DNA of 64,000 bases, from contig NW_002060951.1 of NCBI RefSeq assembly GCF_000150275.1, positions 1,684,297-1,748,296 on the forward strand, read 5' to 3'. How positions within the stretch are numbered: the first letter of the stretch is position 1; the number at the start of each line of letters is the position of its first letter. Source of the DNA: Trichoplax adhaerens (Eukaryota > Animalia > Placozoa). Shown one piece after another: positions 1 to 60,602 of the stretch. Position numbers and translations under genes: made by a program. The notes under the pieces were generated by a model. The model saw only the letters and a list, made by a program, of their open reading frames with translations, ran no database searches and was not told the origin of the DNA.

Positions 1-1375
1 TTAACCCAGCCCACAAGACATATCTAACTCCAACACGAGGTAACTACAAATTGATAAATCAGTACCCTTTTATTAGCTATTCAATTGGTGCGTCCGTGAT
101 ACCTTGAATTAGTATTGAGGCTGTTTATTGAGGTTAGCTCTATTTCATATCAATGTGAAGTAAACTTCATTCTGATTGAAATGCTACTGAACAGTTAGTA
201 GTTATAACTTGAATAAACTCCTTTTGTCTAATTTGGTAGTACCTTTACGTACGTTTAGAATGTTCCCGAATTGTCTAAGCAAGGTACTTAACACTACGGT
301 ATGATAACAGTACAGTACATTTACACAAAATAATCACGAGATGGACATTCTACTAGTCTATGCAATCCATTACTTACCAAAATGCCAACAATAGGTGAGA
401 AGATGGCTTTCACAATAGAATACACCACGAATATTATCCCAAGTTGAACATGTGTTATTTGTCTTTTTTCAGCCTATTCCAAGATAGGATAATAATTATA
501 ATTGATTAATGAATGATAGGTTAATCCTAAACCTACATTGCATGGAGTATTGCATTTTAATCACATCGTAAACATTACAATGTACCTAGACGTTCAATAC
601 CTAGCGATATCAAATCAAAATAATAACGGAATGGAAAATATCGTATACGACTATACGCGTATAGCTTAATGTTTGGTACAGAATTTTAAAAAGGAATTAA
701 TTCATTCAGTTTGCATTGACACATATGTACTGTACGTGTCTAGATCAGTGCATTGGCAAAAAAAACTGTCAGCTAGTCAAATTACTGGCATACAGGGTAT
801 TTACTTAGTAAATCGGATTCAAGCGAGAAAATGGAAGAGGTTAAAATAACTCTATGCAATCTTTCTACTATATGCATTCATATAGCTTTGTATTCGTATC
901 CATCCAGAATCGGTGTCTAGGTGAGAAACTGTCATATCGTTCGTTAATTACTGTACTGTACTGTACATGTTCACGTAGGAAATGGAATGAACACAAAGGA
1001 ATGGAACGCAGAATTAATTAATTTATACACTAGTACGCAAAATTGTAGAAATAATACAGTACGATAAATATAGTAGATCGCATTGCATAAAGAAGCCTCC
1101 TGTAACGCATGAAAATGGAAGTGATATCACTACTAGCCACTCAATGCCAAGACTGGCATTGTATCAAAAGAGTTTAAATAAATCATAAATAAAAGCAGAT
1201 CGATACTACAGCATATGTAATTAATTATCCATGGCATTACCACAATAGGGAAAAATGGAGCTATAATGGCGTAAGCACACGCAGATACAACATACAAGCA
1301 GCTAAAAATGACGATGATTGTTAGTCTAAAACGACGGGTGATATCAGGTAATTGAACTTCAGAAGAATCAGCCAT
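1..1375 (-). CDS. MFS transporter, SLC18B1-like (5' part; gene runs off the window start)
   Basis: Exons 1375-1241 (MADSSEVQ...CAYAIIAPFFPIV|GTAATG), 473-378 (AEKRQITHVQLGIIFVVYSIVKAIFSPIVGIL|GTAAGT) and 43-1 (LPRVGVRYVLWAGL). All join in phase 0 with GT-AG ends. The TM1-TM3 pattern 'APFFP..AE' resembles SLC18B1. Confidence 0.8.
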
Positions 1376-1554
1376 CAATCTCGCTTACGATGAACCCAGC
1401 GTTGATATCTGTCCAATTATCTAACTTTATCTATAACATACAACATGTATATCTATCTACAGTATGATAGTTTTATTCGACCGAAGAGAGTTGTTAGTTT
1501 CGTCTGAATCCAGAAATAGATGGATTAATATGATTAGGTAATACTAGACCTGAC

Positions 1555-1670
1555 CGTAATACTGTACAGTACAGTATAGTAGAAGAAAAGTTGTAGTCAG
1601 CAAATTTTCATCAAACTGCGTACAGTACAGTACAGTAATCGTACTGTACGGTACGATACAGAGTACCACA
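1555..1670. promoter_or_regulatory. (GTACW)n island in the divergent MFS/HBDH promoter
   Basis: TACTGTACAGTACAGTA and TACAGTACAGTACAGTA..GTACTGTACGGTAC between two head-to-head start codons. Confidence 0.55.
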
Positions 1671-1786
1671 GCAAATTCCTCCCGACAACAACTTTTTGCA
1701 GAGCTAGTGTGCAGAGGCACTAAGCTGGGAGTGACCAGAATCATTATATAATTTGAGACAATTTCACTTCAAGTGACTAACTAAAC

Positions 1787-2566
1787 ATGGCTGAAGGCAA
1801 AAATGCAGTGATCACTGGGTCAACAAGTGGCATTGGTCTTGATATTGCTCGTACGTTAGCAAAAAATGGAGCTAATATCGTTATTAATGGCTTTGGTGAA
1901 AAGCAAGTCATCGACAAAATTGTCGAAGAGCTGCAAGGTTATGGTGTTCAGGCCGCCCATCACCCTGCGAATATGTTGCGATCGAATGAAATTAAAGAGA
2001 TGATCCAGTTTACTATTGAAACATTTGGATCGGTCGATATCTTGATTAATAATGCTGGAATTCAGCATGTTTCACCTATTGAAGATTTCCCCGATCAAAC
2101 ATGGGAAAATATCATCGCTATCAATCTATCGGCTGCTTTCTACACCATGAAAGAAGCTATGCCATCGATGAAGAAAAGTAACTGGGGGCGAATAATAAAT
2201 ATTGCTTCAGTTCATGGCTTGGTAGCCTCTGTCGGTAAAACTGGCTATTGTGCAGCCAAGCATGGACTTGTTGGTTTAACCAAAGTCGTTGCGCTAGAAA
2301 CAGCTGAAGCAGAAATAACTTGTAATGCTATTTGCCCTGGCTTTGTTTTGACACCATTAATTGAACAACAAATTGAAAATATAGCCAAAAAGGAAAATAT
2401 ATCTATTACTGAATCTCAACATCGACTTTTAGCTGACAAACAGCCTGCTAAGCAATTTGTTAAAACAAAAGATCTTGGTGAATTAGTCTTATTTTTGTGT
2501 AGTGATGCAGGAAGATTAATGACTGGTGCTTCTCTAACTATGGATGGAGGTTGGACTGCTCAATAA
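1787..2566 (+). CDS. D-3-hydroxybutyrate dehydrogenase, bacterial HBDH-type classical SDR, intronless
   Basis: 259-aa ORF with TGSTSGIG, NNAGIQH, SVHGLVAS..K..YCAAKHG, TPLIEQQI and C-terminal MDGGWTAQ. Confidence 0.93.
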   Translation: MAEGKNAVITGSTSGIGLDIARTLAKNGANIVINGFGEKQVIDKIVEELQGYGVQAAHHPANMLRSNEIKEMIQFTIETFGSVDILINNAGIQHVSPIEDFPDQTWENIIAINLSAAFYTMKEAMPSMKKSNWGRIINIASVHGLVASVGKTGYCAAKHGLVGLTKVVALETAEAEITCNAICPGFVLTPLIEQQIENIAKKENISITESQHRLLADKQPAKQFVKTKDLGELVLFLCSDAGRLMTGASLTMDGGWTAQ

Positions 2567-5461: not shown

Positions 5462-8188
5462 TCATGATATTGCATTAAGGCTTCCAGACATAGTTAACTC
5501 TTTATGAAACGTATAATTCCTTATTTCCATTATAGTTCTCTGCCTATTGTTCACTTGAGGAACAAATAGTATAACATAAATCTTATTAGTAAATAAGCAA
5601 AGAAGGATACCAATAATTAACCCTATCATTCCAAAAGCTCCGATAGTGCTTTGTACTGGACCATGAGCAAATATAATAGTAGGTATATATATGCAAGTAA
5701 AAAAGCAGATGAGTAAAGATGCTAGGGAGACATATTTGGCCTCATGAAAACGTGCTGGGATATGGCGAGCTCTATAAGTGAGATATGCAGATATTGTAGT
5801 GATAATTAATAAAATCGCCATGGAAAGATACGCACCAAGTTCATATCGAGTTTTACAGCGAAAATAAACTAAATTATCTTCAGTAACATATCTTTCGATT
5901 ATGACAGGATCTAAGGCTGTGATCACCAGGATTAGTGAATTAATAATAATTATTTCACCAATAATAAGAATAAATTGTCCGATATCTCTATTCCAAAAAT
6001 TTACTTGTCGACTAAATGATTTATCCTTGAATAGTTTAACAATGATACGAATTTTATTTATTATAACGATGTTAAGATTTGCTGGTGGTAGTAGAATAAC
6101 TGGAAAAATATAATGACAACCTACTAAGGCTTTAGGTAGAATAAACATAACCGGGCTGACATGGCACAGGCCGATGAAAAAGAGTAATGTATAAGTTAGA
6201 GCGATATTAGAAGCCTTTACGATTGGTGTTGATCGATTTTTGAATATAATAAGCCATGTAGTGATGGTTAGTAAAAAGCTCACTGCAGTAGTAATAAGAA
6301 CAACAAGTGGTATCGGATCGATTAATTTGCTCTCAGTTGGTGAGATTTCAACACAATCCGTCTGATTATTATTAGGCTTAGAACCACGTTTGCAACTTGT
6401 GCAAGTATCTGCGTTTATTTTGCTGGAGATTTGATGTTTAAGGCAAGGTAAACATTGCCAGCAGCACTTACTTGTTGTGATATATTGTCGAGTGCCAGGC
6501 TGACAATCATTACTACAGCGAGATGATACTACATGATCTCGAGATAAATTATTCTCCGAAATCATAAACCAAGAAGAATTAGTAGTTTCGTTTATTTCCC
6601 ATGTTCCTATTTTTTTAAAATATAAGTGTTTGCTACTTTCTGCTTTATTACTGTCACTATCTTTTGTCAACTGTAATTGAAAAATATCGTATTTAGGTCT
6701 GCTGTTACCCATGTGATCAAATTTAAATTGGGTTGTAGTGTATCCGTTGAAGTGAACTCTTTTAAGATTTTGTGTAACATCGCGCCATAATAAAGAATCT
6801 TCTTGTCTGATAATCCTACTATGACAGAAAATATTATTACATTTCAAGACTTTATGTAATGCATATGCAAATGCATATACGCCGTCCATCACATATGCTG
6901 CCAGGCTTGACTTCGAGTAAAATTCAATACTGTAATTATTAGATAAGTTTTTCATTTGACCACATTTTAAATAATCAGTAACATTATCTGACATAAATTG
7001 ATACCAATATTCATTAAACCATGGGTTGATATTATTATTACATAGATTTAATGTTTTTAAATATTCATGATATTTGTTTAGTTTCTGTTTAGATTGCAGT
7101 AATGTAACGCCAATCATGCCTATTACAACATCGGAATACGTTCGCGCAATTACAGGAGAATTACCCCACGCATCGGAACCTAGCCACATCCTACCAGTTA
7201 AATTTTGATATTGTGCTTCTTTCAGAAGTACTTTAGCTTCAGCTTCTGAACAAATTAAGATAATTGTTTTAACTTTAACATTATTAACCAATCTGTTAAC
7301 AATATCTGAAATAATTTGATCATGAAACTGTGAAGGAAACTGTGCATTGATTGCAATACATATTTGATATTCAGATGCTAAAGTTACAATTTTGGCTCGA
7401 AGTTGATTACCATATTGATCATTTGTTGATACGACTGCAATATAGTCCCATCCGAAATATTTAACAATATCCACGATAGCTTGAGCTTGATACGTATCGG
7501 ATGGTACGGTGCGAAAAAATGATCCAAATCTTGACTTATCACTTAACGTACGACTAGTAGAAGCGTAGCTGATTTGAGGCATCTTGTAAGTAGTAAACAA
7601 TGTTGCAGTAATTATAGACTCTTTGCTACTTCTAGGACCAATAACACCTATGATCTTTTTATTGAAAGTCTGTTGAATCATATGAATATCGGTTAGATTT
7701 GTTATCGCGTTGCAGTCTGCAGCAGTGTTGATACAGTTGCACATTTTTTCGTTCGCTTTTGGCTTTTGTAAATCATTACGTATCATATCTATAGCATGGG
7801 TCAAAGCTAGTTGTGAACTACCCCCGCTATCGAATAGATATAGCCCTAGGGTTATGTTGGGCAATAAATTGGAATTATTATTAATGGCATCGATAGCATA
7901 AATCATAGATTGTACTCTCTGTAGGCTTCTTGGATTTATAGATTGAAGTTTCCTGGTAATAGGATGGTAATTATCGTGAACATCGAACAATCCAGCTATT
8001 AGAAATTGTCCAGGTTTGACGCCAATTAAAGCTGTAGATTTACCGCCTAATCCCAAAGTGCAAGGCGAATGCAGCGTTGTCTGTCCTTTCTTGATAGAAA
8101 TAGAAAAATGAAACAAATGAAATAGCACAAAGAATTTGGCAAAGCCTAAAAGAGGACGGGTCGGCAATCTATGCAGATACGGAGTCAT
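5462..8188 (-). CDS. Class C GPCR (mGluR/CaSR-like amino-acid receptor), intronless
   Basis: First ATG at 8188 (the ORF track starts at an upstream TTG). Hydrophobic signal peptide, Venus flytrap (INNNSNLLPNITLG, QISYASTS, FFRTVPSD, GSDAW), Cys-rich domain (CSNDC..CCWQC), 7TM with VKAS and IPARFHEAK. Confidence 0.95.
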   Translation of the reverse strand: MTPYLHRLPTRPLLGFAKFFVLFHLFHFSISIKKGQTTLHSPCTLGLGGKSTALIGVKPGQFLIAGLFDVHDNYHPITRKLQSINPRSLQRVQSMIYAIDAINNNSNLLPNITLGLYLFDSGGSSQLALTHAIDMIRNDLQKPKANEKMCNCINTAADCNAITNLTDIHMIQQTFNKKIIGVIGPRSSKESIITATLFTTYKMPQISYASTSRTLSDKSRFGSFFRTVPSDTYQAQAIVDIVKYFGWDYIAVVSTNDQYGNQLRAKIVTLASEYQICIAINAQFPSQFHDQIISDIVNRLVNNVKVKTIILICSEAEAKVLLKEAQYQNLTGRMWLGSDAWGNSPVIARTYSDVVIGMIGVTLLQSKQKLNKYHEYLKTLNLCNNNINPWFNEYWYQFMSDNVTDYLKCGQMKNLSNNYSIEFYSKSSLAAYVMDGVYAFAYALHKVLKCNNIFCHSRIIRQEDSLLWRDVTQNLKRVHFNGYTTTQFKFDHMGNSRPKYDIFQLQLTKDSDSNKAESSKHLYFKKIGTWEINETTNSSWFMISENNLSRDHVVSSRCSNDCQPGTRQYITTSKCCWQCLPCLKHQISSKINADTCTSCKRGSKPNNNQTDCVEISPTESKLIDPIPLVVLITTAVSFLLTITTWLIIFKNRSTPIVKASNIALTYTLLFFIGLCHVSPVMFILPKALVGCHYIFPVILLPPANLNIVIINKIRIIVKLFKDKSFSRQVNFWNRDIGQFILIIGEIIIINSLILVITALDPVIIERYVTEDNLVYFRCKTRYELGAYLSMAILLIITTISAYLTYRARHIPARFHEAKYVSLASLLICFFTCIYIPTIIFAHGPVQSTIGAFGMIGLIIGILLCLFTNKIYVILFVPQVNNRQRTIMEIRNYTFHKELTMSGSLNAIS

Positions 8189-11974: not shown

Positions 11975-12002
11975 GACGTTCGCCACCACTGAGTATACCC
12001 TT

Positions 12003-12146
12003 TTACAGTACAGTACTGTAGTACTGTATGTACTGTAATTTACAACCATGTCACTGTTCTGTACCGTACAAGTGTCCTGTACAGTACATTGTACACTGTA
12101 CTGTACAGGATATGGACCGATTACTGTTTTGGACAGTACTGTACTG
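12003..12146. promoter_or_regulatory. (GTACW)n island directly upstream of the SNRNP25 ATG
   Basis: Dense TACAG/TACTG units 30-170 bp upstream of the start codon. Confidence 0.55.
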
Positions 12147-13536
12147 CAAGTTCTAACTTGTCTGTCTTAATTTCGAGAAAGTCAGAGATGGCTAAAACCT
12201 GGAGAGAAACAGAAAGAGAGCGCGTGCCTCCTCGTGTACGCAAATGCATTCCCTGCTATGAAAATTTTGATAATTGGCACCAGTGTTTTAGTCACTCGCT
12301 GATTTAAACGCTATTACAATTCAATGTATAACTACTGTAAATGGCATTATAATTTCATTCAGGATAAGGCACAGTAATGTAACATCATGCAGTAATATTT
12401 GCAACTGCGTTAAACAAATCTGCTGAATGGGAATACTGTATCATATCATGTTATAAAACTCCTGTAATGAATCGAGTGCGTAGTGGTATCAAAAATTATT
12501 ATTCTTTTATTAGTGAACATACTGTATATACTGTATATATACAATATAAGTGCTGTCACATTGTTACCATATGACATTTCGTCCAATGATAAAAAGATCA
12601 TACTAATAACTGATACTGAACCATGTCATGAGTTAATCTTAATGATACAGTATATTAGCTTAGGAATATAATTATACAGCAATTTCAATTATTTCGACAG
12701 TCGATAACAAATTTATAATTAATATCGAATTTAAACTCTTGGCTGTTATACTGACCCACACGTGAGAACTCACATGGACTACAAGAAATATTGTATTCCA
12801 TTATAATTATGCTATTTACCGCTATGCATCAGTATTTTTTCTCTTTCTAAATTTGGATTAAGCAAATAGTCCGTCGGCGTAACTAAAATCGATCTAAGGC
12901 ATGGTTGTACGCGCACAGCAGACTATGTCGGTTATTTGATACTTCCATTAATAACACAATTTATGATTAAGACATCTTCATTACCGAAACTTAAATAGTC
13001 TAAAATCGATATGCATGGCGAACTCAGACCGAATCGCGAATAGGTATAATATACACATGCCTAAATATCATGTATCCATAATTACTTACTGCAATATGCA
13101 TGGTACATTATACTGTAGTAAGATTATATACGCAGCTAACTTTCTTCAAATTTTAAAAAGTTTGTCTATAATAAGTTATTTAGTAATTGCAAAGATATGA
13201 CGCCTAAATACTGAGTGTGTTAAGCCAACATTACCAAATAGTGATGTAATCAAACAAAAAGTTGCAATACTCTCATATGAACCAAGATACGCTCTGCTAT
13301 ATAGTAAATCATTTGTTGAATTTTATGTTCATTAATATCGCTTTCAGTGTTTAGTGCTTTCTAGTCTGCAAAGCAGCTTCTCTTTTAAGTACAGCAATCC
13401 ATGTCCTAGGTAAGCTTCGAATATCCCAATCTTCTCCATAGTTTATCCGAAGTTCTATTGTGTTACTTGCATAATGCATTTTGCGATATGATATATTGCA
13501 AAGGCAGATAAGTTTGAACTTGTACGAACTATCTCA

Positions 13537-19710: not shown

Positions 19711-20252
19711 TCCATTGGTACCGTGGTATAGTAGGACAGCTACGGGCATAAGGAGCATTTTTTTTTTTATCACCAAACACTACCACCAGTACAGCAAAGT
19801 AATATAAAACCATCGATCAGTGTGGTTAGGTACCACTGCGCAAGGATAGCTGGGATTGGCGGTAGCCATTATAATCTGTTGTCTACAATTCTTACAAGAA
19901 CCTGATGCTGGTTTAGAGCTATCAGGGGTCATCAGAACAGTATCGCAGGTAATCTTTCCTCATCCATGGTATTACTCCAATCTTGATAATATCTAGATGT
20001 TAAAGAATATTATTTCTGTTGTATTAGCTTTTTATTTGACCTCTAACTATCGAACGAAGGCCGTTTTACTAATGTTGTAGAACACGCCCCGTTCGAAAAT
20101 CATCGCCATTTTGAAATATGTCTATAATAGGACAATACCCTAGTGTTGTTAAATTGACTCTATACGTCGATTAATAGGAGTAAAAGAGCTCTTGTACCCC
20201 AGCTAACATTGGTGTCATTTTGTGTTCGTTGATTTAATTGTAGGTTAGTCAG

Positions 20253-28115: not shown

Positions 28116-28304
28116 GTAGGGTTAGTCCTACGTGATTTTTGTTTCAAAAGTATCGCTGAAACGGTTTTTTTTAGTGAATTGAATATGATTTTGCTTCAAA
28201 AATATCGCTAAATGTTTTTATCGAATTTAAGTCCGCTCTATAAAATCGTTTCAGCATTACTTTCGAAACAATAATTACAGTACTGTATGTAGGACAAGCT
28301 CTAC
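28116..28304. mobile_element. Degenerate MITE-like foldback element
   Basis: About 70-bp imperfect terminal inverted repeats: GTAGGGTTAGTCCTAC..TTGTTTCAAAAGTATCGCTGAAACG versus CGTTTCAGCATTACTTTCGAAACAA..GTAGGACAAGCTCTAC. Also an internal direct sub-repeat at about 28186-28212. No clear TSD. Confidence 0.6.
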
Positions 28305-40900: not shown

Positions 40901-43616
40901 GGATAACCGTGGGTGGATGATAATCGTCTAATTTCATTTGCCTGTCAAGATATTACTTTAATTTTACAATGTAAACGATTTGAACCTGCTATTATTATAG
41001 CTATTATATTTCAAATCTCTTTGACGGTAGATAATAAATGTTGAGGCGCCATCCTGTCTGTTACTGCCATCTTGATAAGGCTTCGAAAACAAGAAAAAAA
41101 TAATTATCAGACTAACTTCAAACTGAATTCACTCGTTAGTGGAAATTTTCTGACGGCATAAAACTAGTATTAGCAATGGTTAAGTGAAGCAATATCAGTA
41201 TGAATTAATTATGGTGACCAAATCAACCAATAGATAGCTTTAGCCAAGAAAGATCATAAAATGAATATTAGAAAATTGTCAAGTTGTATTACAAAACTAT
41301 GTATTACTAATAACAGCGGTTTGGGTACGTATGATTGCTCATTATTTTAAGCGTGTTATTGATGATACGCATGCACATCCTATTCTTACCTCGATGGCAT
41401 AAGTTTCATTTATGGCTTCAAAAGTTCCCAAAATTGTATATTCATCGATATAAAAAGAACCTTCCGACGCTAAATCACCTAATTATGATCAAATTATAAA
41501 AATAATTCTTACCTAGTTTGTCTAGATGTAGGCATGTAGCTACTGGTATTGGAGTTCATTTAAATTTTTTACACATATTACTGTGATTTCTCAGAATATG
41601 CGCAATTAACCAATACTGACAGGAATGAATTAGCCAGTGTTTCATGTTTCCATTGTTGTCTCATGCAACGAAACGGCCCAATGCTTGAGATAGACTAATA
41701 AAAATTATCGAATAGCTAAAATTACCGTGCTTACCGTCGAGACTGCATTCATAAAGGTGATCAACTTGAAAATCGTATTTGATCATTTTGTTTTCAGTAT
41801 GACCCAAATGGTACACTTCGAATGATGGTGAGAACAGCCCTGAGCGTGGCCATAAATTTAAATTAAATTGCCTAACACAGGGGTTGTAAAATTAAATTAA
41901 AATATATGGAGTTGATACTAGTAATTAATTTATAAGTAATATGGTTTTAATATATCGTTCAAAGTGAGCTAAACGAATTCAGGAAGAATGAATTCTATGA
42001 ATTTAACATAAAGTATAACAATCCGACTAAAAAGAATACAGTATAGCTTAGGCAGTTGAGCACATTTAGCTGATGGATTGAAATAGCGAAAATAAGTGGC
42101 TAGATGAGTACTGATATTAAAGGAATAGGATACAAAAAATTCATGATCATCGCTTTGCAAGACACTAAATAGGATTATCAATTGCATTAGAGATATCAAT
42201 AAAATGAAAGCATTTAAGATCGTAATTGAAGATCTATGTTAATAATATATCTACGATTAAAAGACTTATGCAGTTGGCAGATAAAAATCTTGTACCGTTT
42301 TTAAGCGTAGTATTATATTATTAAAGTAAAAAACTGCCGATCTTGACAACGAATTGGATTTGATAGCAACTTGTATCGATAACTTGGTTATTATAGCAAA
42401 CAACATTTTTTGACCAGATAGTCTTATTTAATAGAAATATCATACCTATCAAAAGCTGTGAATAATATCGATTCAATCCGGCATGATAGACCGCTGCAGC
42501 CGTTCGTGTTAGACCTAGTATTTTGACTTGTGATGTATTTAAAATCCGCTAACTGCAATTTTTCATAATATTGGATACGTTCTGCAGTATACAATATTTT
42601 CAAAGAACACAAGATTGACTGAAAGATCGTATTGCATAAATATGTATAACTATAAAATTTATATTTTAGATTGTACCGTATCAACTGATGTTGCAATTTT
42701 TCAAAGAATAAGATTTCCATTAGCATTACGATAGTAAAAACTTAAGAAGTAGAATATAACTCATTGTCATTTTGTGGATATCTACGTTATAGAGATAATT
42801 TCAGTGGCATTTACTACGATATAGCTTTAAAGCTTCGTATCGGATCTAATATGAGCTATCTGCCTGAAATAAATAAGTTAATCGGCGATACGATACTATA
42901 TCAGGCGTGTATGAATGAGTGTTCGGAGCAGTGCATAGAAATTTTCACTTAATTTATCTTAATTTAGTGCACTCTTGATAAGATCAAGGGTTTAAGAAGA
43001 TTAAAAAGTACATTATAAACATGTATTTTGCACCAATGATATACTATAGGCGTTAGCAAGTAAACAAACATCACCCTTTATTTAATCTCAGTTTCGTAGT
43101 GGGTAGTATCTTGTATCGACAACTTGGTAGACGTAAAATCTAGTTTTTAGATTCACATGAAAATTACGCGGATAATATAAGACTAATAGATGTTCATTCA
43201 TCTTATGAATATATAAATAGGATCTTGAAATTACAAATTAATTGAAAGAATACCATCACTTACAACAATTTAATTGATTGCATGTGCTTTAAAAAAATTA
43301 AAAGTTATAGTCACATCATACAGAATGAATTTCGACTAAAATGAAGCGTCGAAATGACTAAAGAGAGTATAACGATATGCAAATTCTGTTATTATTTACG
43401 GTACAGAATTTAAAATTGACATCAGCTTAGAGCACTAAATATACGCGTAGTATAGTAAACGAATAATCAAACATATTGCATCTCAAAGAAATTTTAAGAG
43501 CTATGATGTAGAAGATTAATAACAATTTAGACATTACCTAGATCGATCATGGTAACCGAGAAATGGATACAGCCTAAAAATATATAAAGTATAGAAATAT
43601 AATGACACCCAACCAT
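34965..43616 (-). CDS. ADAM17: ADAM17 (TACE)-like metalloprotease-disintegrin
   Basis: Signal-peptide exon 43616-43538, prodomain, furin-like [57 protein letters not shown] Met-turn, disintegrin [15 protein letters not shown], membrane-proximal CQICC, VQDFITR and [18 protein letters not shown]. Stop at 34967-34965. Confidence 0.93.
36712..37102 (-). other. U12-type (minor) AT-AC intron in ADAM17
   Basis: 5' ATATCCTT (37102-37095), branch TTCTTTAAC (36729-36721) 9 nt before the terminal CCAC. Splicing restores YCDGFSSQCP in frame. Confidence 0.88.
38265..38270 (-). CDS. 6-nt microexon AAATCG encoding the catalytic Glu of ADAM17 HEIGH
   Basis: Context on the minus strand is AAATAG|AAATCG|GTAAGA. 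The flanking exons end CAC G and begin GT CAT, so inclusion gives H-E-I-G-H. Confidence 0.85.
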
Positions 43617-46600
43617 ATTGAATTCAATATATGATTGATTTTGTTTTGTCTATCGATTTAAGATAGTGCTAAAATCGATCATAACTTACTGATAATCATC
43701 ATTTTATTGCCATGAAAAGTGTGTCATTATATATCAATAAGGCATTTGCACATTAAGTATAAAACTGGTAAACAAAAGAAAGGATTTCTTTAAATGCGGC
43801 ATAATACTAACATGACATCTGCAATTGATCCGATATAACGCAACCAATTGTTCCTTCCTATTATTTTTCTTGGTTGTGAATGGCTGGCGAAAGTTTTAAT
43901 GTACTGTTTTGGCTTGGTAGGTTGATTTAAGTAACCAAGTTATTGACGTGCTTACATTAATGAATGGCCTCTGATGAGAAAGGTTCTCGGAAAAATTGCT
44001 TTCAAATTTGTCAATCAAATCTTTTAAGTAATAATTCCTAAAAATACAATATCTGATTATCATCACTATTTAATATTATGTGAACAACGTAATTGTGATA
44101 TGAAGCTAATTGTGATGAGAGTAGCTATCTTACTGTTACTGTCAACAGTATTTGACCTTTAAGATTATTACTTCTCGTGAATTCTCGACTTTTGATATCA
44201 TACTATTTAAATGAGTTATTTAATATTATGCTAAGTTCTCAATTAACGATGGTGCTGTAGCTTCTATAGTCTTAAGGACTAAGATGGATTGGCTTTAATT
44301 AATGGGACTGAGACCTTTCATCATCATGGTTTATCAGCGCATTTTAGATCGTTCTAGTGACGTTGGAGTGTCTAGTTATCACCAGTCTGTTGAAGTTGAT
44401 TACGGTATGATCCGAGGTTAATTCTGATCTATTGGTATAACTCTTTTATTCTGTGTTATTTCTACCACTAGCCTAGCCTTAAGATTGAAATAATGTCGGT
44501 TTAGCATGATTACGTCTTCAATAGCATGCCTGTTTAATTTATTCAATTGATCGTACTTGCTATAATATCGATTATTCGAAGAAATCTACAGCTTTAACCG
44601 TTAGATATAACACGGATTATACGTTTTTAACACCATGGTTTAACAAGTAAATTATAATTACCAACGTTTTGTAAAGGATTATTTAATTCTAGATAAGCTC
44701 TTGTAGTTTATCATTATCGAATAAGAAGCAAGTTATGATTGTGCTAGCGCTCTGCGTAGATTAAGAAAAGTATTGTGCTTCTATGCATGGATGGTAATAG
44801 TATATAGCCGAAATTATATGCATTTAAGCTGAGATTTGCAATTCCAGACTGTCTTTTATATCAATTGAACAGTAACAGATCGATAAATGTATTTATAGTT
44901 ATTCTTCAGTATACATGGAAAATTTGTAAAATTTAAGGAAAAGTCAAGTTATACTCGATTTCGTTCCAGTGTAAACGCTAGCTGAAATTGAAAATTAAAG
45001 TTTTAGGTCCGATAACTCAATGAAAGGAGTTGTAGACGGGTGGACAACTAGAGAAGCAAAATGTCATGCACTTGATAACTTGTAGTTATAAGGTAATCCA
45101 AAGACAAAAACACCCTAGTTTTAAATGACGTATAAAGACATTTAGAATTTAGCTTAGTAGTTATTATTTCGATATTTTAATGGGCAATAATTCACATTTT
45201 ATATTTGTGTTGTCAAAATATCACGCCCAACTTTTTAACAGTGCGTTACATCAGAACAATTAATTCCCAGTACAGCACTGCTCTATCCCGACTAATTCTA
45301 ATAGCTAACCTTTACGTTTGGACTATGTGATAAAAATGAGTTACAGGTATGATCTTTGATAGATATCAAAGCCGTAAGAGAAAAGACTGATATGGTCTAT
45401 TAACTAGTTCATACTAAGAATTCACTGGATCAAGTATATGTAGAGTGATTGTAAAAATTCGTTATTACACTTTAAAGCTAACTATGGCGACCAGTAGGTC
45501 GCCATAGTTTGCTTCAAAGACGAGATTAAACTATGCTGGTCAAAGTACAAAAAGCGGAAGGAGAATAGCTTCGGTGCATTAATAGATGACGAAATCGCTA
45601 ATAATGGATCAACTACGACAAGGATCTTTTGTAGTCTTGATTTATGAAACTTAAATGCACCGCATACGCGTATGTACTTTACTTGCATCACTACAAAGGG
45701 GACGATTTCTATCAAAGTACTGATGCATCCAGAAATTGAATCATAACTGATTAGTTCATTAAGATGCTTTAATGGTACTTTTATAATATATGCTGTACAG
45801 TCTACATGCTAGATAAAAATTAATAATAGCGTCTATGTACGCCGATGTTGCGTGCTAATAACTTATAAGTAAGTTAATGTAAAATAAAAGTCTTTTGTTA
45901 GTCATACAGATTTACCGACGTTACAGGATAGACATCCAAGGGAGAAAACTGAACGAAGACAATATTCGGGTGTATCATAGTAAGAAGACATAGACGAAAC
46001 CATATAATTACAATACTCAAGAGATGACATACTGCATTACGTTTTATAGAAAATACCGACAATAATTAAATCAGCATAATTGTGCTCGCTAGCTAATCTA
46101 TCACAGGCTGTAACTAATTAATTAGATCTACAATAATTGTGTTGCCGCCTTTTAAAATGGTGAAACTGTCGGTGGTGTTCAGACAGCTAACGTTGTCGTA
46201 ACATCGCCTGTCCTGTAAACTACAGTACTGCTTGTTACCTTGTAGTGTATGCCGCCATAGAACGTGGGAAATCCTAGATATCATACAATACTTTTTACGG
46301 CTTATCTACACCTACTACATTATGATCACATTCTACAAATGTTCACGTGCATTAGGATATGGTATTAAAGTTATGTTCATACTAGAGCTGATTTGTTGTC
46401 ACAGTTCTTATGACTCATTAACGTGTGTATGATATCGCGCTTGGCTTGGGCTTCCAAATAAAGTAGACTAAAGGAAAGGAAAGCTCAAAATCTCAGATTC
46501 TTGATCTCGTTACAAACGTATCTTTCTAAATCTGAATAGGAGTTTGAATGCATTAATACTAGCGATTTTGAGAGTATATCATTCATACTCTATTACCTTT

Positions 46601-48369
46601 TCGTCACACTAATTTATCACAGCATAAAATTGGAGAGGAAAGATGAAAGAATTAGATTCAATTTATCTATTGCGTGGAAAATCTATAGATGCTTACTTTA
46701 GGCTTACAAATTCTAGGAGTTAAAAATAACAAAAGCGATTACGGTAATAAAGGAATACACTTAAACTAAACTAAACTGCTTGTGTTTATTGGATAGTAAT
46801 CAGATAATCTCTAATTCCTTAAAAGAATATATGCATATCGGTATTGTAAAAATAAAAATAAACTGTACACTTTTATGAAGAAAATGCTATAATATGGTTT
46901 ATGATGTCCTTTGAATCAACAAATTGGCATATTGCAACTTTCCTGCTTCTTAATTAATGATGGTATTTTGGACGTAGCACTGGAAGAATTCTGGCTCAAG
47001 GCACATCCTTGACATTAAAGACAGTGAGACAAAGACTTAAACTAAGACAGTTACAATCTGTAGAATGGTGATAAATTGCTTACGCACGATAGAAATTGAT
47101 TTAAAACGTAGTTGATTGGAAAGAGCCTCTGCGACGTGCATTGTTTCTAGTGCAGTGCATCTTTTTTCTTCAATTAACAGCTCATAACTATACTACTGTC
47201 TATTTGAAGGTTTCTTTACAGGGCGCTATGACAATGAGGAATTATTGCTTTATTATCGATATCGTCAATCTCGATTTTAATCTCGCGAACAATTTACTAG
47301 GCTACTTGCTTTGAGTAAACTACCTGCCCTTAATGAAATTCTTCTGATGGATTCTATCATATATTGTACGTAAAGCGTACGTGCTCGACGAATGTCTACC
47401 TATCATTAGGATATCAATTTCCGATTACTGAATACACATATAATTTAAGTGTCACTGAAAGTTACTGAATGAATTAAAGAATCTTTTTGAGCGAGATAAT
47501 AAAATAACTGTTAACGCAGTCTTGAGTATAATTTATAAAAATGGAACAAAATTAGAAAAACATTTTGCTAGTTTTGAGTATATTCCATATTGTGAGAGTG
47601 CAGCCACAAGCAGTCGTTGTCGAGGGTTCTCATGCTGAATTGTTGTGTTAGCAGGCAGCTGTAGCCTGTAGGTATTACGGCAGTAATTGTAATAATCGGA
47701 ATGCAGGAAGTACAGGAGAATCTATACGGCTATGAGAGCATGAAAATCGTGTTGCAAATGGAAAATTGCAGAGTAGAAATTCTAAGCAGTCTCTAATATA
47801 CGCTAGAGAAGCAGATTTCACCAAAAGCATCGCGTTAATTTTTCGAAAAGGGTTGAGTCAATTTTAGTTGACCAAGCAATGCAGTATGTTCTGTGTAATG
47901 CCACGATTATACTGGATACGAATGTAGTACGTCCATACCATACCATAGGCGTATATCATATGCGATAGGTTGCATTGCGTCATTAAAGATTGGCAAATAC
48001 TTCAACTTTATTAATTAAGCTAATATCCAGTACAGTACTATCTGAACTCTGGTCCGAAGTTATAGTACCAATTGAATGTCTGTCTATTTTTGATGGAATA
48101 AAAAATCCTTCAATAGCAATATCTTGCGGAACAGACTTACTCTTAGTTGTACAGTACAGCGTATGCTTGGTTCATGCAATTAATCAAGGCAACCGTCATC
48201 AAACTATTCAATATTAGCTCTTCGTATATACTGTACAGGCATACGCTTATAGGCTTATCCTACAATTTATTCCATTGATTCTGATCAGATCTTATGGTGT
48301 TGCAATCATATTACGTGTCATCACACTGTCGAAATTATTCTATCTGCTACTCTTTTCACGAGAATGATT

Positions 48370-49590
48370 TACTGTACTGTACACTGTACAGTACAGTACA
48401 GCGTACATATCGATTGCTATACTGTAAAAGTGCAGTGCTGTACAGGGTACATTGTACTGTACAGTACAGTACAGTACAGTACTGTTCTTCATATCAACTA
48501 AGTATTGTATACTGTAAGATCCATTCAGAATGCTCAAAGTTGAAAAAAGTCTTTGCGTAGACCATTCCATATCATGCCATATTACACTGTCGTTAATCCT
48601 TTGGAAGTTTAAAACAATCGGCCTAAATGCATGCATATGATGCATGGGACAGTACGTACAGGAATCTATTACTAAAAGTTCCAAGCAGCGTTATGACTTT
48701 GCCTTTTGACTGCTAGATAGCACGGTTAAGGATAATGCAAAAGACATTAATAAATCAGTACAGCTGAGACGTAGTATGATGCATCGACTTACTCCACTCT
48801 ACAGTACAGTACTGTACAATATTGCACAGACAGTATTTAGACATTAATAAACCAGTACAGCTGAGACGTACAGTACAGTAGTAGTATGATGCGTCGACTT
48901 ACTCCACTATACTGTACAGTACTGTATACTAATTTACCGTAGTTTATTTTTTGACACCAGATAATCGGACGTGCGGTACAGACAGTGAAATAGTACTGTA
49001 CTGTACAGTATACTGTGCCACTAAATGAGTTACTATGAAAGAGTGAACATTGACGCGGCACGCGGTGACTGTACGCCCGAGTTGAGTGAGTGTACGGTAC
49101 AGTGTACAGTACACGAGAGGTCTGGTGCACAGTACTGTAACTCGTCGCTCGACGCTCAACGCCGGTCGCTGGCTGCTTGTATGAACGTACCATAGTGACG
49201 AGTGAGTACAGTACAGTACCACGGTACTCCCATAATAATCTGCACCTGTATGAACAAGTTCCACCAAAAATCAGTCAAACTTCAGGACAGTGCTATTCAC
49301 TGTCAATAGAAAAAGTCTTCCAATTTTTCACTGTCACAGTCAACGAGGTTTTTCTTTTGCCTCTACTAGTACACCAAGACTTATACTACTGCTTGTACTG
49401 GCAATTCCAAAATGCTAAATTTAGTGTAGTACCTATGACACAGAATAACTATGAGGTTATCTTTTGTGAAGTAGGGGACGGCTGAGAAGTCTGCCATAGG
49501 ATACCGACAAGTCTATGATGTACAGTACAGTAGCGTACTATACTGTACTGTACTTAAGAACTCTTGTACTGTACAATGTACAGTAGTCTG
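48370..49590. promoter_or_regulatory. (GTACW)n islands upstream of 14-3-3
   Basis: Densest tract in the window, e.g. 48453-48485 TGTACTGTACAGTACAGTACAGTACAGTACTGT. Confidence 0.55.
48743..48927 (+). repeat. Local tandem duplication (about 75 and 88 bp copies)
   Basis: GACATTAATAAA.CAGTACAGCTGAGACGT..AGTATGATGC.TCGACTTACTCCACT occurs at 48743 and 48840. Confidence 0.9.
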
Positions 49591-49620
49591 CACAAACGCT
49601 GTCGTCATCCTTAGCATTGA

Positions 49621-49628
49621 TGACGTCA
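49621..49628. promoter_or_regulatory. CRE palindrome TGACGTCA upstream of 14-3-3
   Basis: Exact CREB/ATF site about 300 bp upstream of the ATG, just after the TACAG island. Function is untested. Confidence 0.45.
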
Positions 49629-49919
49629 AATTGCCGCCATATGAACAGCAGGGGTTTGCTCACCCCACATCATTTTTTGGCTGGGTTAGGAGCTCTTTTA
49701 TTTCAATTCTACTGCACATTGCGCGTGCATCTTGCATTTCGGTTACGGTACTGCAGACTACTGTAAAGGAAGCGGTTAGGAAAATCATTGCTGTAGGCTT
49801 TTCTCTTGACCTGTTTGATCCGCCTTGTTTTAGGCTACCTAAAAATCGGTTGTCACGATTGAACATATTCCTTTTTCTAGAATCTTACTTAATTGATTTA
49901 AAGAAGACAAATCACAGTA

Positions 49920-52900
49920 ATGGAAGAATCGGCTAAGTTGATCCAAAAGGCTAAATTTGCTGAACAAGCAGAAAGATACGATGACATGGCCGCCTCTATG
50001 AAATCGGTCACTGAATCTGGTTTTGTATTGGATACTGAAGAAAGAAATTTACTATCTGTAGCATATAAGAACGTTGTTGGTGCTAGACGTTCCTCTTGGC
50101 GTATTATATCAAGCATTGAGCAAAAATTTTTAGACAAGGGTGAACCTGAGGCTAAATTGACAATCACTAGGGAGTATCGTTTGAAGATTGAGAAGGAATT
50201 ACAAGATATTTGCGATGACGTTCTGGTTAGTAATCGTTACCTTTTTGAAACTTTCCAACTAAATGATATCTGTTTGCCTAATGTCCCTTGCTTGCGGATA
50301 CTTCCATCTTTATTATGTCTATAACTAAAACATACAGTAGATTTTTCGTGATGATTTACTATTGAACCATACTTATTGATTCTGCGACCCTATAAATTCT
50401 GTTATTGCAGTAGTTACAAATTTTAAAGATTTTTTTGTCTTTGTCTTAACGTCATAATTGTCGAATACTGGCAAATTGCTTTAAAGCTTTCCGCCTTACT
50501 TTGCTGTTTGGCTATAATGGAAGCTGATGAAGGAATTCCCTACCATAAATATGGTAGATTGCATAAGAATGTTTTGTCTCTACTATACTGTAAAAATACG
50601 CGTGTATACCAGTGTTCGTTTTTAACTTTGACTCGTACCGCTGATACGTTATGATTAATGGCGGACACTGCAAGTGATCGTTTTCATACTATTGACAGCT
50701 TAAACGTGTAAACTATTAGTGTTAAATAAGCTACGTATTAATTCATCAATGTATATTGCAGTGGCGTACAGATTCACACAGTGCTCTGTATTGATGGGCA
50801 AAAAGAAATCCGTAACTTAATCAAACTCGAGAGGGAAATGTGATCATTTTCTGTTATGTCATGTACGCAGACGTTCTGTATAAACGCACTTTACCGCTTA
50901 CTCGCACATACGTCCCATATTAGTTGCATGCTGTTGCTTTATGTTTAAGTGTACTTTTAGTTCATTAGCAATACAATATATGGTATTCCGTCAAGAAAGG
51001 GACCACACAGACTGAAGAATAGTGAGAAACAGTAGAGATATTACTGCCGAAAGGAAGAGATCATTTCAAAGTTCTCTATGACTAGTTACACTGCTTTTTT
51101 TGCTTCCCATTGTTTGCTACTTCTCAGTCTGATTTGAAAAATTGTGAAAAGACGTCAAGTGCAGTATGTAGTATGACGCTGCGCGTTACCATTCGGTCTT
51201 ACGAAAATAGTTATTCAAAAAAAAACTGGTCTACGGCTGATAAACTGGAAACGCTCCCTGGCGGTCAACTCTTACCGTACTGCATTGTAAGGTACAATAT
51301 GCTGCAGTAGGTTACAGTACATATCGCTGATTTTACGGTACCAGTGACATAGTAAAATTGTATATTCGTTTACAGTACCGCAACACAGTACTGTACTGTA
51401 CTGTACTGTACACATCGTTGGAAACATGCGGTACAGGTACTGTACTTCTGTTTTTTTCACGATCTCCTATCATTATGCCCAAACCAAACATTGTGAAGCA
51501 CTGTATTCTTCTGTTTTTGCTGGTTTCTATGTAATTAGCATGGCATGAAAATCACTCTGCTGGCTCGTGACATTGTCTATATTAAGTCTGTACTGTCTTT
51601 TCGCCGTTACATATAGACTAAGGGCGAAAGCTTCTAGTCGTTTCCATACTCGTACAGAACCTTATCACAAAAAGATACCACCGTACATGGACGGTTTTGA
51701 AAGACGCGTATTAGTCACAAGATTTTGATTAGTACGCTCACTTATAAAAAATTGTATCAGATTGCCTTACTGGTGTAGTAATGATTTAAATACTGCATTA
51801 CATATTTTCAATCATTTCCCTATTTTATCCGGGCAATTTTAGTTTGGATCATGCGAAAATTAAAACGATATAAAAAGAGCTCATAATTTATTGTACTCCA
51901 TAATCAATTGCGGCGAGTGATAACCTGCTGGTTAAATTTTTTACCATATTTTCTTTTTTGGACCAGCGTTACAATAGCGTTCCTTAGTTACAATACTTTT
52001 GCCGTACATTATGGCTAATAATTATATTAATCATCATTAATGATTGAACTCTGAGTAAAAGATGTACACCGACCAGTTACGAAAAGAGATTCTTTTACGA
52101 GAATCCGATGACTACAGTATGCATTTTACGCATGTGTCTGTATTCAGCAATGGTGCTTGTACGATTGTAAATGATCTCTTTAAAATTTCTTTCTTTATTT
52201 ATAAGTTTATTATGTAACAAGCCGCGGCATCTTAGTTATAAATTATTTAGTTTAAATATCATCTTGCATATGGTAGAAAGGAACCCGGCAGTTGAGTGAA
52301 CTGCGTAAGTGTGCCTATAGAAAGTGGAGTAAGTGTTCTTAGGCAACGCAAATAGAAGTCAAAATTTTATAGTATTTTGCTATTGACGATGGCGTAACAC
52401 ATACCCGTAGTCTCCTCATTTTGGGTGACTTGAGTTTTTTATGCTCTAGCAATGGAACAGTTATCGGGGGTTTCAGGATGTAATATTACTCAGTGTGTAG
52501 ATTCGGGAGGAGCTCTGTATTAAAAGGTGCACTTCAATGCACTATACTATGAGTATTTTTAATTAAATTGATTAAAATTGATAGTGTGAAACTGTTTTTT
52601 TGCATTGTATTCCGTTAGCTATTGTATCGAATAATTATGAAATAATAGACGACTATCCATAATAACTCCTGTACAATGATATAACTAGATGTTACCCAAA
52701 GTAGATAGTGGTTAGTATCTTCCGTGCATGCATCTGCCTTTTAATTAAAGATGTAACATTTGGTAGTTTATAGTACAGCTCATGGGATAATTAGAGACAA
52801 GTTTTGTACCTTCTGTATTTCTTGCCGTAGAAGCGTAGACTTGACGTTTAACTTCGGTTTAAGTATATTAATCGAATTATTGTACTGTATACTAAGTCGT

Positions 52901-58248: not shown

Positions 58249-59704
58249 TTACGCAAATAATTTAAACTTCTTGAAATACTTCTGAACATCACTCTTGACG
58301 TAAGGCCTAGTTGCGATGCAAGTGGAAATATTTTCTGGTTGTTCCACCCAAATCTTATAATCTATATTGTTGGCTTTCAATTTATCGGCTAAGCGTAACA
58401 AAGTGTCTTCATCCTTAACCTAATTTGTAAGTTCAAATTTATGCAAAGCTCATATTATAAATTGTATAATTATAGTATCGGTATTTAATTACTGTATGTG
58501 CTAATTACGTTAAGTCTTTTAAAATGATGGAACTCCGAAGTACTTTAAGATTGTACGATTAACTGTAAGTATCGATGAAGTAGCTGAAATATATGATGTT
58601 ATCATGATAAAATGTTGAAAATTAGCAGGACTGTATCGTAACAGTACAATACAGTATAATTATTATAAGATGCAAATAGAGCTTATTTGGTTGTACAGTA
58701 CTGCACTACTGTAAATGCAAATTTGATCATAAATACTGTAGTATTAATTAACATATTGATCCACATTATAACGCATGTAAGGAGGCCTAAGTGATCTACC
58801 TAATAATAATAGAGTAGAATCCCACTTCTGGATATCTACCAGGCGAATTATTAGCTTGCTATTTATAGTATATACGGGTATAATCATACTATAAAAAATT
58901 ATTGCACATAATCTTCGTATAGTACAGTATAGTATTTATAGTTACTGGCAAGATTTATCCATGTAATTCATCAAATCTGAGAATAGAGTCCAGTTACGCA
59001 TCACTAGTGGGCCGGTATATGATCGAAGCAACATTAATTAAAGTGAGTTTTTAGTGAAATAAAGTATATTTGTCACATAACTGAGGTGGACTATTTTCTG
59101 TCGTTTATTATTGCAAGCCTTGGTTTGTAATAATCGTTAACAAAGATACTGAAATTTGATAACATTAAGTTATTAAGTAGATTGTAATTTGTAATCTACT
59201 GTACGCTGAACAGTACTGTATAAGCTCAATTGCTCATCTATTACTCCTTACTTCAAGGGTAAAAAAAAAACCGAGCACTGTGTTACTGTACTGTACAGCA
59301 TAGTTCAGCATAGCACTATGAAATCTATATGTGTGGTAGGTTATTTCAGTAGCGACTATTATACAGCAGGTGCTTCCTGTACAGTAATTTCCGGCCCATC
59401 ATAAACATACTGCTGTATTGAAGTACTACAGTACTGTACACTGTGTACAATATGCAGTTACTGTATTGGGTTTTGTAAAGAACTTAGCATACAGTACTGT
59501 ACATTAACTTACCCCCAAAACAACTTTATGCATATTATCTAAATTTTCCATATAAGATATGGTTGTTGGTTCGTTGCGAAAGATATGCAAGGCAGCAGAA
59601 CATGCATGGCATGCTTGAGCCAGTAACGCACCAGTTGGCCATCCAAGGACTGTTGTCAGGTCACTCCTGATGACAATATATTGAACTATATTGGCCGATG
59701 CCAT
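58249..59704 (-). CDS. PTRHD1: Putative peptidyl-tRNA hydrolase PTRHD1 (PTH2 family)
   Basis: Exons 59704-59513 ([29 protein letters not shown]) and 58419-58249 ([27 protein letters not shown]). Confidence 0.92.
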
Positions 59705-59879
59705 CTGAACATTCTAAGATAAGAGATTCAATCTGATAAACAAGCCACTGCAGTCAGTAGTCTTCTATAACTAGCATCAAATGCGTAACCTGCTAGTAGT
59801 ACGTACAGCTACGTAATAATTCCCTAAAATAAAATTACAATTATCTGCACTGCAGGGACTTTCTTTGGTAGACCAGTCT

Positions 59880-60125
59880 TTTATACAGTACTGTACACTC
59901 AGTGTACAGTACAATGCAGACTGTCTACTGTCTAGTTTCTCACTGTCTACAGTACCGATGGACATCGTGACAGGATAGGAGACTAGGAGTAAAAAATTTC
60001 AATTCGCCTCGAGTCCCTTATTACATATTCATATATTGCGTAGTACTGTACGTATAATGTCGTAGGTTAACATCCAACAGTATGTATATTGCCTTTCCTG
60101 GGTACACTATACTATACTGTATAAT
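59880..60125. promoter_or_regulatory. (GTACW)n island in the divergent PTRHD1/PFK promoter
   Basis: TACAGTACTGTACAC..GTGTACAGTAC and further units between head-to-head genes. Confidence 0.5.
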
Positions 60126-60602
60126 ATCCTATGCAAGGCTTCAAAAATGATGTAATTTAGCTTGTTTTTCCAGCAGGGTTGTAGTTTATGGTGGCCATAA
60201 AATCGGGGTAGTCGAAGTTCGCAGTGACACTCCGATGTAATATACTAAATGCAGAAGACGATGGTCAGTACAGCCTTAACAATGCCGTCACGTAGCGGTT
60301 CAACTTGGATCACGTATTCTGCGCAGTGTGAAACAGTTGGGATAACAATACTCCAGCTGGCGTACGGTACAGTATGGACTCCTAGGAAAGAACTAGTCTT
60401 TCCTAGTAGTCCATGAGTAGCAGTATTTACCATACTGCAAATAATACTGTCATAATACTGTAGAGGGGCAGTATCGATCAAAAGACAAGTCACGTCACGA
60501 CAACACCGGCGTTATTTGGAGCTATCTGCAGCAGGTGCTGGTACTGTACTGGACAACTTGCGTCGATTAAAATAGAAACATTGATTTGTAAAATCATACA
60601 AA

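What the first reader, a model, noticed from the sequence alone, without database searches (positions are those of the whole stretch)
940..60550. Self-complementary (GTACW)n pentamer islands mark 5' ends of housekeeping genes, like a CpG-island analogue
Seen: degenerate arrays of TACAG/TACTG units, whose class is its own reverse complement with 5-bp period. They cluster at 1555-1670, 12003-12146, 16388, 17000-19710, 28276-29620, 48020-49590 and 59200-60125, plus first introns (948, 51360-51445, 58640-59500). They look scarce by eye across the GPCR, the ADAM17 body, the 44-47.9 kb spacer and the coding exons. Nearly every broadly expressed gene here has an island near its start, while the GPCR and ADAM17 ATGs do not. 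Inference: either an orientation-independent promoter code (multimerised TF sites or a nucleosome-phasing signal) or a mutational footprint of open germline chromatin. I know of no specific description for this lineage but cannot exclude one.
Basis: partly seen in the sequence, partly recalled or inferred. Interest (0 to 1): 0.78.

Follow-up and report, generated by a model that had tools for sequence, protein, structure and literature searches.

The report
Trichoplax ACAGT promoter repeat islands
Clusters of a short self-complementary DNA word sit just upstream of most gene starts in this stretch of the placozoan Trichoplax; they are the ACAGT repeat reported near its gene starts in 2010, and likely act as binding sites for a promoter protein that is still unidentified.

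Summary
The islands are real. TACWGTA occurs 200 times against 18.7 expected, at the stated coordinates. 135 of 200 lie within 2 kb upstream of 10 gene-start anchors (shifted null mean 56, max 101).

The window is Trichoplax adhaerens and the feature is in print. Wang et al. 2010 (PMC2871265) report ACAGT as the dominant microsatellite, 54% within 1 kb upstream of genes and enriched at translation genes, and propose a transcription-factor site. Seven rows of their table are arrays of this window. A 2026 Hi-C model (PMC12817080) also recovers repeating ACAGT. This scan noted it twice before on other DNA.

Added here:
- The unit is the 7-mer; only 51 of 200 lie in perfect runs.
- Neighbouring units switch orientation at 12 of 40 junctions, against 61 of 1759 in metagenome control arrays, so plain slippage is insufficient.
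- Phase is lost beyond about 10 bp, against nucleosome phasing.
- CpG is not depleted, so the CpG-island analogy is positional only.

Best reading: multimerised, orientation-free sites of an unidentified promoter factor (0.5). The 7-mer equals the Sleeping Beauty excision footprint, an origin not excluded (0.12). Identity with Kim et al.'s loop-anchor motif is unconfirmed.

The parts
949..1061 (.). Cluster of 4 TACWGTA in the inferred first intron of the minus-strand MFS-like gene (ATG 1375)
   Evidence: the array 949-966 is a row of the PMC2871265 table; intron placement read from the sequence, no RNA laid here
1458..1648 (.). Island of 8 copies between head-to-head genes: MFS-like (ATG 1375, minus) and 3-hydroxybutyrate dehydrogenase (ATG 1787, plus)
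   Evidence: the array 1620-1637 is in the published table
12004..12652 (.). Island of 13 copies (8 in 12003-12146), starting 13 bp upstream of the RNA-contig edge (11991) of a minus-strand ubiquitin-like gene (SNRNP25-like, name recalled)
   Evidence: PF18036
16389..16477 (.). Cluster of 3 in the first intron of a minus-strand gene (cereblon-like, name recalled) whose first exon 16663-16985 is non-coding and has no copy
   Evidence: (joint 14847-16663)
17002..19705 (.). Broad island (38 copies in 17000-19710) between the cereblon-like gene (RNA edge 16985; first copy 17 bp upstream) and the plus-strand Pumilio gene; contains a 50-N gap at 18098-18147
   Evidence: arrays 17928, 18072 and 19064 are in the published table; the Pumilio start is inferred, not shown
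28276..29618 (.). Looser island of 13 copies, 0.4-1.7 kb upstream of the FAF2/UBX model ATG (30013)
48031..49771 (.). Densest island (36 copies), at the 14-3-3 end of the 6-kb spacer between ADAM17-like (minus) and 14-3-3 (plus); last copy ends 65 bp before the RNA edge 49830
   Evidence: the array 48459-48482 is in the published table
51313..51444 (.). Cluster of 7 in the first coding intron of 14-3-3 (50225-54213)
   Evidence: the array 51388-51411 is in the published table
58490..59501 (.). 16 copies in the intron after the first coding exon of the minus-strand PTH2-domain gene (PTRHD1-like, ATG 59704)
59884..60548 (.). 9 copies between head-to-head genes: PTRHD1-like (inferred RNA edge about 59849) and phosphofructokinase-like (ATG 60603, name recalled)
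5465..8188 (-). Single-ORF class C GPCR; no copy within 500 bp upstream, 6 within 2.1 kb (comparison gene)
34968..43702 (-). ADAM17-like gene; 6 copies in the body and none within 2 kb upstream of the model ATG (comparison gene)
   Evidence: start derived from the published table distance, not RNA-checked

Best explanation
These are the known Trichoplax ACAGT repeat clusters: runs of the self-complementary 7-mer TACWGTA packed upstream of gene starts and in first introns, which likely serve as multimerised, orientation-free binding sites for a still unidentified, probably broadly expressed promoter or chromatin protein. Shown: enrichment, position, equal use of both orientations, frequent switching between neighbouring units, and an edge 13-65 bp upstream of RNA-contig ends. 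Inferred: a dyad-symmetric site explains why A and T are interchangeable at the centre while G and C are rare. Slippage and local duplication likely add neighbouring copies. Bound clusters would help keep promoters open and insulated or looped. No binding, chromatin or expression data were tested here.
For: Centre W is kept: between GTACs 5 bp apart the letter is A 38, T 35, G 3, C 1. Orientation switches at 12 of 40 junctions (11 of 33 in arrays of 2-3 units), against 61 of 1759 (22 of 424) in 114 metagenome loci carrying the same repeat; Fisher p 2e-8 and 3e-6. Perfect copies exceed one-mismatch copies in islands (excess about 141 against about 78), more than simple decay would give (inference). 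Clusters stop just before transcript edges in 4 of 4 genes with RNA contigs, and the non-coding 323-nt first exon holds none. In the ADAM/14-3-3 spacer, 36 copies lie at the 14-3-3 end and 1 in the other 4.2 kb. Literature: upstream bias and translation GO, binding site proposed (PMC2871265); repeating ACAGT recovered as a motif that alters predicted Micro-C maps (PMC12817080); promoter hubs of housekeeping-type genes carry an enriched motif (PMC12221973).
Against: No protein is known and nothing was assayed. One-mismatch variants show a transition excess at all six outer positions (46.6 over 6 classes against 21.0 over 12 transversion classes), which looks like ordinary decay rather than a position-specific binding profile. 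The word is still about 3-fold enriched outside islands. A mutational process favoured in open chromatin would give the same positions. The evidence is one window with 10 anchors, six of them ATGs rather than transcript ends, and contig edges are not true start sites.
Confidence: 0.5

Rival explanations
1. Mutational by-product: short ACAGT microsatellites grow by slippage and are flipped by template switching or hairpin correction in open promoter DNA, with little or no function.
For: Same-orientation junctions exceed chance (27 of 38, p 0.014) and tandem pairs exceed random placement (38 against a simulated mean of 19.5, max 34). Decay is transition-biased. 9 of 12 listed perfect inverted repeats with arms of 10 bp or more (several overlapping) are built from the motif. 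There is a 64-nt local duplication at 48758/48868.
Against: The same repeat in other organisms' loci rarely switches (3.5%), so a placozoan-specific process is needed. 149 of 200 copies lie outside perfect runs. Flanks of neighbouring arrays are only slightly more complementary than those of distant pairs (3 of 57 against 10 of 3547 at 5 bp or more, two of the three sharing one end).
Confidence: 0.25
2. The 7-mers are excision footprints of a Tc1/mariner-type transposon (TA plus CAG or CTG plus TA) that inserted repeatedly into open germline or stem-cell promoters; slippage then lengthened some.
For: TACAGTA and TACTGTA are the two canonical Sleeping Beauty footprints (bioRxiv 10.1101/659086). 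Among all TA-N3-TA words only CAG/CTG stands out (200 against 18.7; next CCG/CGG 24 against 7.1). The two forms are equal (99/101). Random reinsertion at TA reproduces the number of switches (9.5 against 11). Two 5-bp presence/absence differences convert TA to TACWGTA (17700 in one contig; 46221 among copies of a dispersed repeat).
Against: The non-canonical footprints, over half of events in cell assays, are not clearly enriched: TACATA/TATGTA 89 against 107, TACGTA 31 against 24.7, TACTA/TAGTA 322 against 287. PMC2871265 found only 11 mariner/Tc1 remnants and no active element, whereas extrapolating this window implies some 10^5 copies. Both indels could equally be slippage deletions, as polarity is unknown. 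Array ends favour G and C (37 of 160 arrays have both).
Confidence: 0.12
3. The islands are terminal inverted repeats or fragments of one Mutator or other transposon family inserted at promoters, as proposed for the placozoan loop-anchor motif.
For: PMC12221973 reports Mutator insertions at GP1 promoters whose TIRs contain the loop-anchor motif.
Against: Copies from elsewhere in the genome share only the array: loose ends of 46-92 contigs per place agree at 0.37-0.43 (6 rows shown for run X3). The longest inverted arms in the window consist of the motif itself or of AT-rich matches. PMC12817080 assigns the transposon motif to ACGG, not ACAGT, and ACGG is not enriched here (34 against 35.6 in islands; no ACGGACGG). 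PMC2871265 lists only 6 MuDR remnants. That EDTA could call such arrays TIRs is my inference.
Confidence: 0.08
4. A nucleosome-phasing code, or a true CpG-island equivalent protected from a DNA modification.
For: Islands are slightly GC-richer after masking the motif (0.384 against 0.332).
Against: There is no 10 or 10.5 bp periodicity at lags 25-199 and no CpG depletion or island excess. GTAC modification could not be tested.
Confidence: 0.05

Closest known systems
ACAGT microsatellite of Trichoplax adhaerens (Wang et al. 2010, PMC2871265; read parts 1-3 of 4 of the text, and rows of Additional files 5 and 2)
   Same: Same organism, same repeat, same upstream-of-gene bias, housekeeping-type GO terms and binding-site proposal. 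7 of 7 table rows seen map to perfect arrays of this window at one fixed offset.
   Different: They counted perfect runs only. Here the unit is the 7-mer TACWGTA, 149 of 200 copies lie outside perfect runs, and arrays often switch orientation. One 13-bp run I looked up was not in their table.
Repeating ACAGT motif from the Chimaera Hi-C model (Shkolikov et al. 2026, PMC12817080; passages and section 61 read, supplement unreadable)
   Same: Same letters and species; found by a search for motifs tied to chromatin patterns.
   Different: It is a model prediction; the text does not say which pattern ACAGT drives. Their second motif, ACGG, is not enriched here.
Loop-anchor / GP1 promoter motif of placozoan promoter hubs (Kim et al. 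2025, PMC12221973; passages, sections 24 and 31, and 5 of 6 supplements searched)
   Same: Promoters of highly expressed housekeeping-type genes in the same animal; shared across placozoans.
   Different: Its letters appear only in figures, so identity could not be checked. PMC12817080 equates it with ACGG. No shared Mutator flanks were seen here.
Sleeping Beauty / Tc1 excision footprint (bioRxiv 10.1101/659086; passages read)
   Same: Identical 7-mers, with both forms about equal here.
   Different: Non-canonical footprints are not clearly enriched, and no active element is reported in this genome.
Vertebrate CpG islands (recalled)
   Same: Orientation-free sequence patches at 5' ends of broadly expressed genes, reaching into first introns.
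   Different: No CpG depletion or CpG excess; clusters end before the transcript edge rather than spanning it in the 4 genes checked.

Membership tests
Trichoplax ACAGT microsatellite (Wang 2010) | Sequence from Trichoplax adhaerens | tested here: met
   homologues named T. adhaerens and Trichoplax sp. H2
Trichoplax ACAGT microsatellite (Wang 2010) | Perfect ACAGT/ACTGT runs over 12 bp, the dominant pentamer | tested here: met
   23 runs; 48 tandem ACAGT-class dimers against 13 for the next class
Trichoplax ACAGT microsatellite (Wang 2010) | Lies upstream of nearby genes and is listed in the published table | tested here: met
   (7 of 7 rows seen)
Placozoan loop-anchor / GP1 motif (Kim 2025) | Matches the published motif logo | not testable with these tools
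   letters absent from the text and searchable supplements; PMC12817080 points to ACGG
Placozoan loop-anchor / GP1 motif (Kim 2025) | Sits at Micro-C loop anchors with ATAC and H3K4me3 peaks | not testable with these tools
   no chromatin tracks available; contig depth cannot show level
Mutator transposon TIR | Copies share long terminal sequence beyond the short motif | tested here: not met
   loose-end agreement 0.37-0.43; inverted arms are motif only
Mutator transposon TIR | 8-10 bp target-site duplication around TIR pairs | not tested
   no island pair could be defined as element ends
Tc1/mariner excision footprint | TA + CAG/CTG + TA, both forms | tested here: met
Tc1/mariner excision footprint | Shorter non-canonical footprints accompany the canonical ones | tested here: not met
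Tc1/mariner excision footprint | Arises as a 5-bp gain at a lone TA | tested here: inconclusive
   two unpolarised indels
Tc1/mariner excision footprint | A source element with CAG...CTG ends exists in the genome | not testable with these tools
   no genome held; PMC2871265 reports 11 remnants and no intact element
CpG island | CpG excess against a CpG-depleted background | tested here: not met
   o/e 0.96 in islands, 1.04 outside; 0.96 overall
Nucleosome-phasing signal | About 10.5-bp periodicity sustained over 100 bp or more | tested here: not met
   (motif-to-motif lags only)

The most novel reading that the evidence does not exclude
The placozoan promoter word TACWGTA began as Tc1/mariner-type excision scars that piled up in open chromatin and was then adopted as the binding site of a lineage-specific architectural protein. 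A whole phylum's housekeeping-promoter mark would then be built from transposon footprints, and the Mutator TIR calls at these promoters would be annotation artefacts of self-complementary arrays.
Probability: 0.12. Interest if true: 0.75.

Novelty: already known. Interest (0 to 1): 0.2.

Why it matters
The feature and its link to gene starts have been in print since 2010, so the finding is a rediscovery. What remains open is the mechanism. The architectural factor behind placozoan promoter hubs is unknown (PMC12221973). Defining the unit as an orientation-free 7-mer that switches within arrays gives a precise bait for pull-down and a precise indel test of its origin.

Tried and rejected
No whole genome is held for this window, so no genome-wide TSS test was run; that part rests on PMC2871265.

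A scan of metagenome contigs for an orthologous 14-3-3 stretch found 0 loci, so no second haplotype was available for conservation tests.

A homologue search with the Pumilio N-terminal region found nothing at E 0.001. The Pumilio start stays inferred and was left out of the final positional test; it was included.

Pfam gave no hit for 19 of 34 candidate exons, including those of the cereblon-like and PFK-like genes; those names are recalled. The proposed plus-strand ORF at 12189 was dropped, because RNA contigs there belong to the 3' end of the minus-strand gene.

ACGG repeats are absent. Single-strand folding gave z -5.8, -5.3, -1.9, -4.5, -0.5 and -2.6 for 6 hand-picked island stretches, against about 0 for 2 controls. 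This follows from the palindromic words and was not counted as evidence.

Run X21 gave only short scattered contigs and was not interpreted. Tables of other letters and indels were cut, so a substitution-rate test was not possible. No TIR was found at the two dispersed repeats.

Searches that did not give the Kim motif's letters. PMC10580291 (passages) and bioRxiv 2022.12.18.520930 (passages) named no binder. A search on DNA methylation in Trichoplax was seen as a listing only and not used. The supplement of PMC12817080 and file 6 of PMC12221973 could not be read and may bear on motif identity.
Full report
Organism and genes. The intronless dehydrogenase ORF at 1787-2563 clusters at 90% with a Trichoplax sp. 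H2 protein. Two other exons hit T. adhaerens and H2 models of FAF2 and an ADAM17-like protease. The window is therefore Trichoplax adhaerens DNA. Gene starts came from ORFs and Pfam, tblastn of the homologues, and spliced RNA contigs laid on 8000-18090 and 42500-62400. Names for the SNRNP25-like, cereblon-like, PTRHD1-like and PFK-like genes are recalled. Contig edges are lower bounds on transcript starts, not mapped starts.

Observation. TACWGTA occurs 200 times against 18.7 expected, and GTACWGTAC 73 against 0.6. Clustering holds after collapsing tandem copies. With 10 anchors (7 ATGs, 3 RNA edges; Pumilio left out), 46, 76 and 135 of 200 copies fall within 0.5, 1 and 2 kb upstream. None of 1160 circular shifts reaches these numbers, and gene 3' ends are not enriched. 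In 4 of 4 genes with usable RNA contigs the nearest copy lies 13, 17, 35 (edge inferred from record coordinates) and 65 bp upstream of the edge; the leading exon or UTR has none, except one copy in the first 500 bp of the SNRNP25-like gene. ADAM17-like has none within 2 kb upstream. The GPCR has none within 500 bp but 6 within 2.1 kb. Expression breadth was not measured.

Grammar. The unit is the 7-mer, and only 51 of 200 copies lie inside perfect runs over 12 bp. Both forms are equal, with no strand bias relative to genes (56 against 49). Phase fades after two or three units and there is no 10-10.5 bp signal. Adjacent units switch orientation at 12 of 40 junctions. As a control I fetched 114 metagenome loci with five or more units, out of an estimated 4500. 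Their arrays switch at 61 of 1759 junctions, and at 22 of 424 in short arrays against 11 of 33 here. The control loci are of unknown organisms, chosen for long arrays and not independent, and 10 of 114 also switch often. Still, ordinary slippage does not account for the Trichoplax pattern. Slippage does contribute, since same-orientation neighbours and tandem pairs exceed a random-insertion simulation (27 of 38; 38 pairs against 19.5). CpG is neither depleted nor raised in islands.

Not one transposon family. A DNA run laid 5321 contigs on 19.9 kb, with summed depth 19355 over the array bin against about 60 elsewhere, so the repeat is genome-wide. The unaligned flanks of those contigs agree at only 0.37-0.43, so they share no common element sequence.

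Prior art. Wang et al. 2010 (PMC2871265; recalled, found, read) report that ACAGT makes up 78% of 7233 pentanucleotide microsatellites. They find that 54% and 85% lie within 1 and 5 kb upstream of genes, that linked genes are enriched for translation and protein modification, and that the motif may be a transcription-factor site. All 7 rows that I saw of their Additional file 5 map to perfect arrays of this window at one offset. Shkolikov et al. 2026 (PMC12817080) recover repeating ACGG and ACAGT as motifs tied to chromatin patterns and say the former is the transposon motif of Kim et al. Kim et al. 2025 (PMC12221973) describe a motif at loop anchors and housekeeping-type promoters, linked to EDTA-called Mutator TIRs. 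Its letters are only in figures, and ACGG is not enriched here, so I cannot say it is this motif. Two earlier notes of this scan on other DNA describe the same feature. One led me to PMC12817080. The other raised the footprint idea and equated the motif with Kim's, which I could not confirm.

Mechanism. I favour multimerised, orientation-free sites for an unidentified promoter or architectural protein (0.5). The centre tolerates A or T but rarely G or C (73 against 4), perfect copies outnumber one-mismatch copies, clusters end at transcript edges, and an independent model ties the repeat to folding. Against this, decay is transition-biased at every outer position, the word is also 3-fold enriched outside islands, and nothing was assayed. 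A purely mutational origin by slippage plus template switching gets 0.25; flank evidence for it is weak. The 7-mers are exactly the canonical Sleeping Beauty footprints, the simulation reproduces the switch count, and two 5-bp presence/absence differences fit. However, non-canonical footprints are not clearly enriched, the genome has only 11 mariner/Tc1 remnants and the indels are unpolarised, so this gets 0.12. Mutator fragments get 0.08, and phasing or a true CpG-island equivalent 0.05.

Verdict. The feature is real and already known, including its link to gene starts and housekeeping functions. The new details are modest: the 7-mer unit, the orientation switching against a control, and the edge at transcript starts. 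Interest 0.2.

Noticed in passing
window 9326-9882: Multi-copy, transcribed dispersed repeat upstream of the GPCR (RNA contig depth 110-500 with many variants). It holds a TACTG dimer at 9839. No TIR found.
   Followed up: partly
window 46193-46514: Second dispersed repeat in the ADAM/14-3-3 spacer (DNA depth about 14 times background in its bin). About half of the depth at 46221 lacks 5 bp of the TACAGTA there. No TIR found.
   Followed up: partly
window 17241-17870: Unspliced RNA contigs in three runs, inside the broad island between the cereblon-like gene and Pumilio; possibly a non-coding or divergent transcript or a Pumilio 5' exon. Strand unknown.
   Followed up: no
window 16663-16985: Non-coding first exon of the cereblon-like gene, spliced over a 1.8-kb intron. 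The published gene model seems to start at about 14791, so older motif-to-gene distances are overestimated here.
   Followed up: partly
window 11985 and 16985: Two contigs of run X8 carry 21 and 24 unaligned letters at the mRNA 5' side; an adapter or a leader sequence. The letters were not shown.
   Followed up: no
window 1787-2563: Intronless 3-hydroxybutyrate dehydrogenase whose best hit in the published table is bacterial; possible horizontal transfer, untested.
   Followed up: no
window 48758-48931: 64-nt direct duplication, 84% identical and 110 bp apart, that doubles motif arrays inside the 14-3-3 island.
   Followed up: no
islands, after masking the motif: Other words remain enriched: CACTGTC/GACAGTG 9 against 0.6, TAATTAA/TTAATTA 23 against 3.5, GAGTCC/GGACTC 8 against 1.4; possible further promoter elements.
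   Followed up: no
window 32281-32309, 45480-45509, 60382-60406: Perfect inverted repeats with 10-13 bp arms that are not built from the motif.
   Followed up: no
L059, L066, L058, L056, L092: A few metagenome loci have TACWG arrays that switch orientation as often as in Trichoplax; organisms unknown.
   Followed up: no
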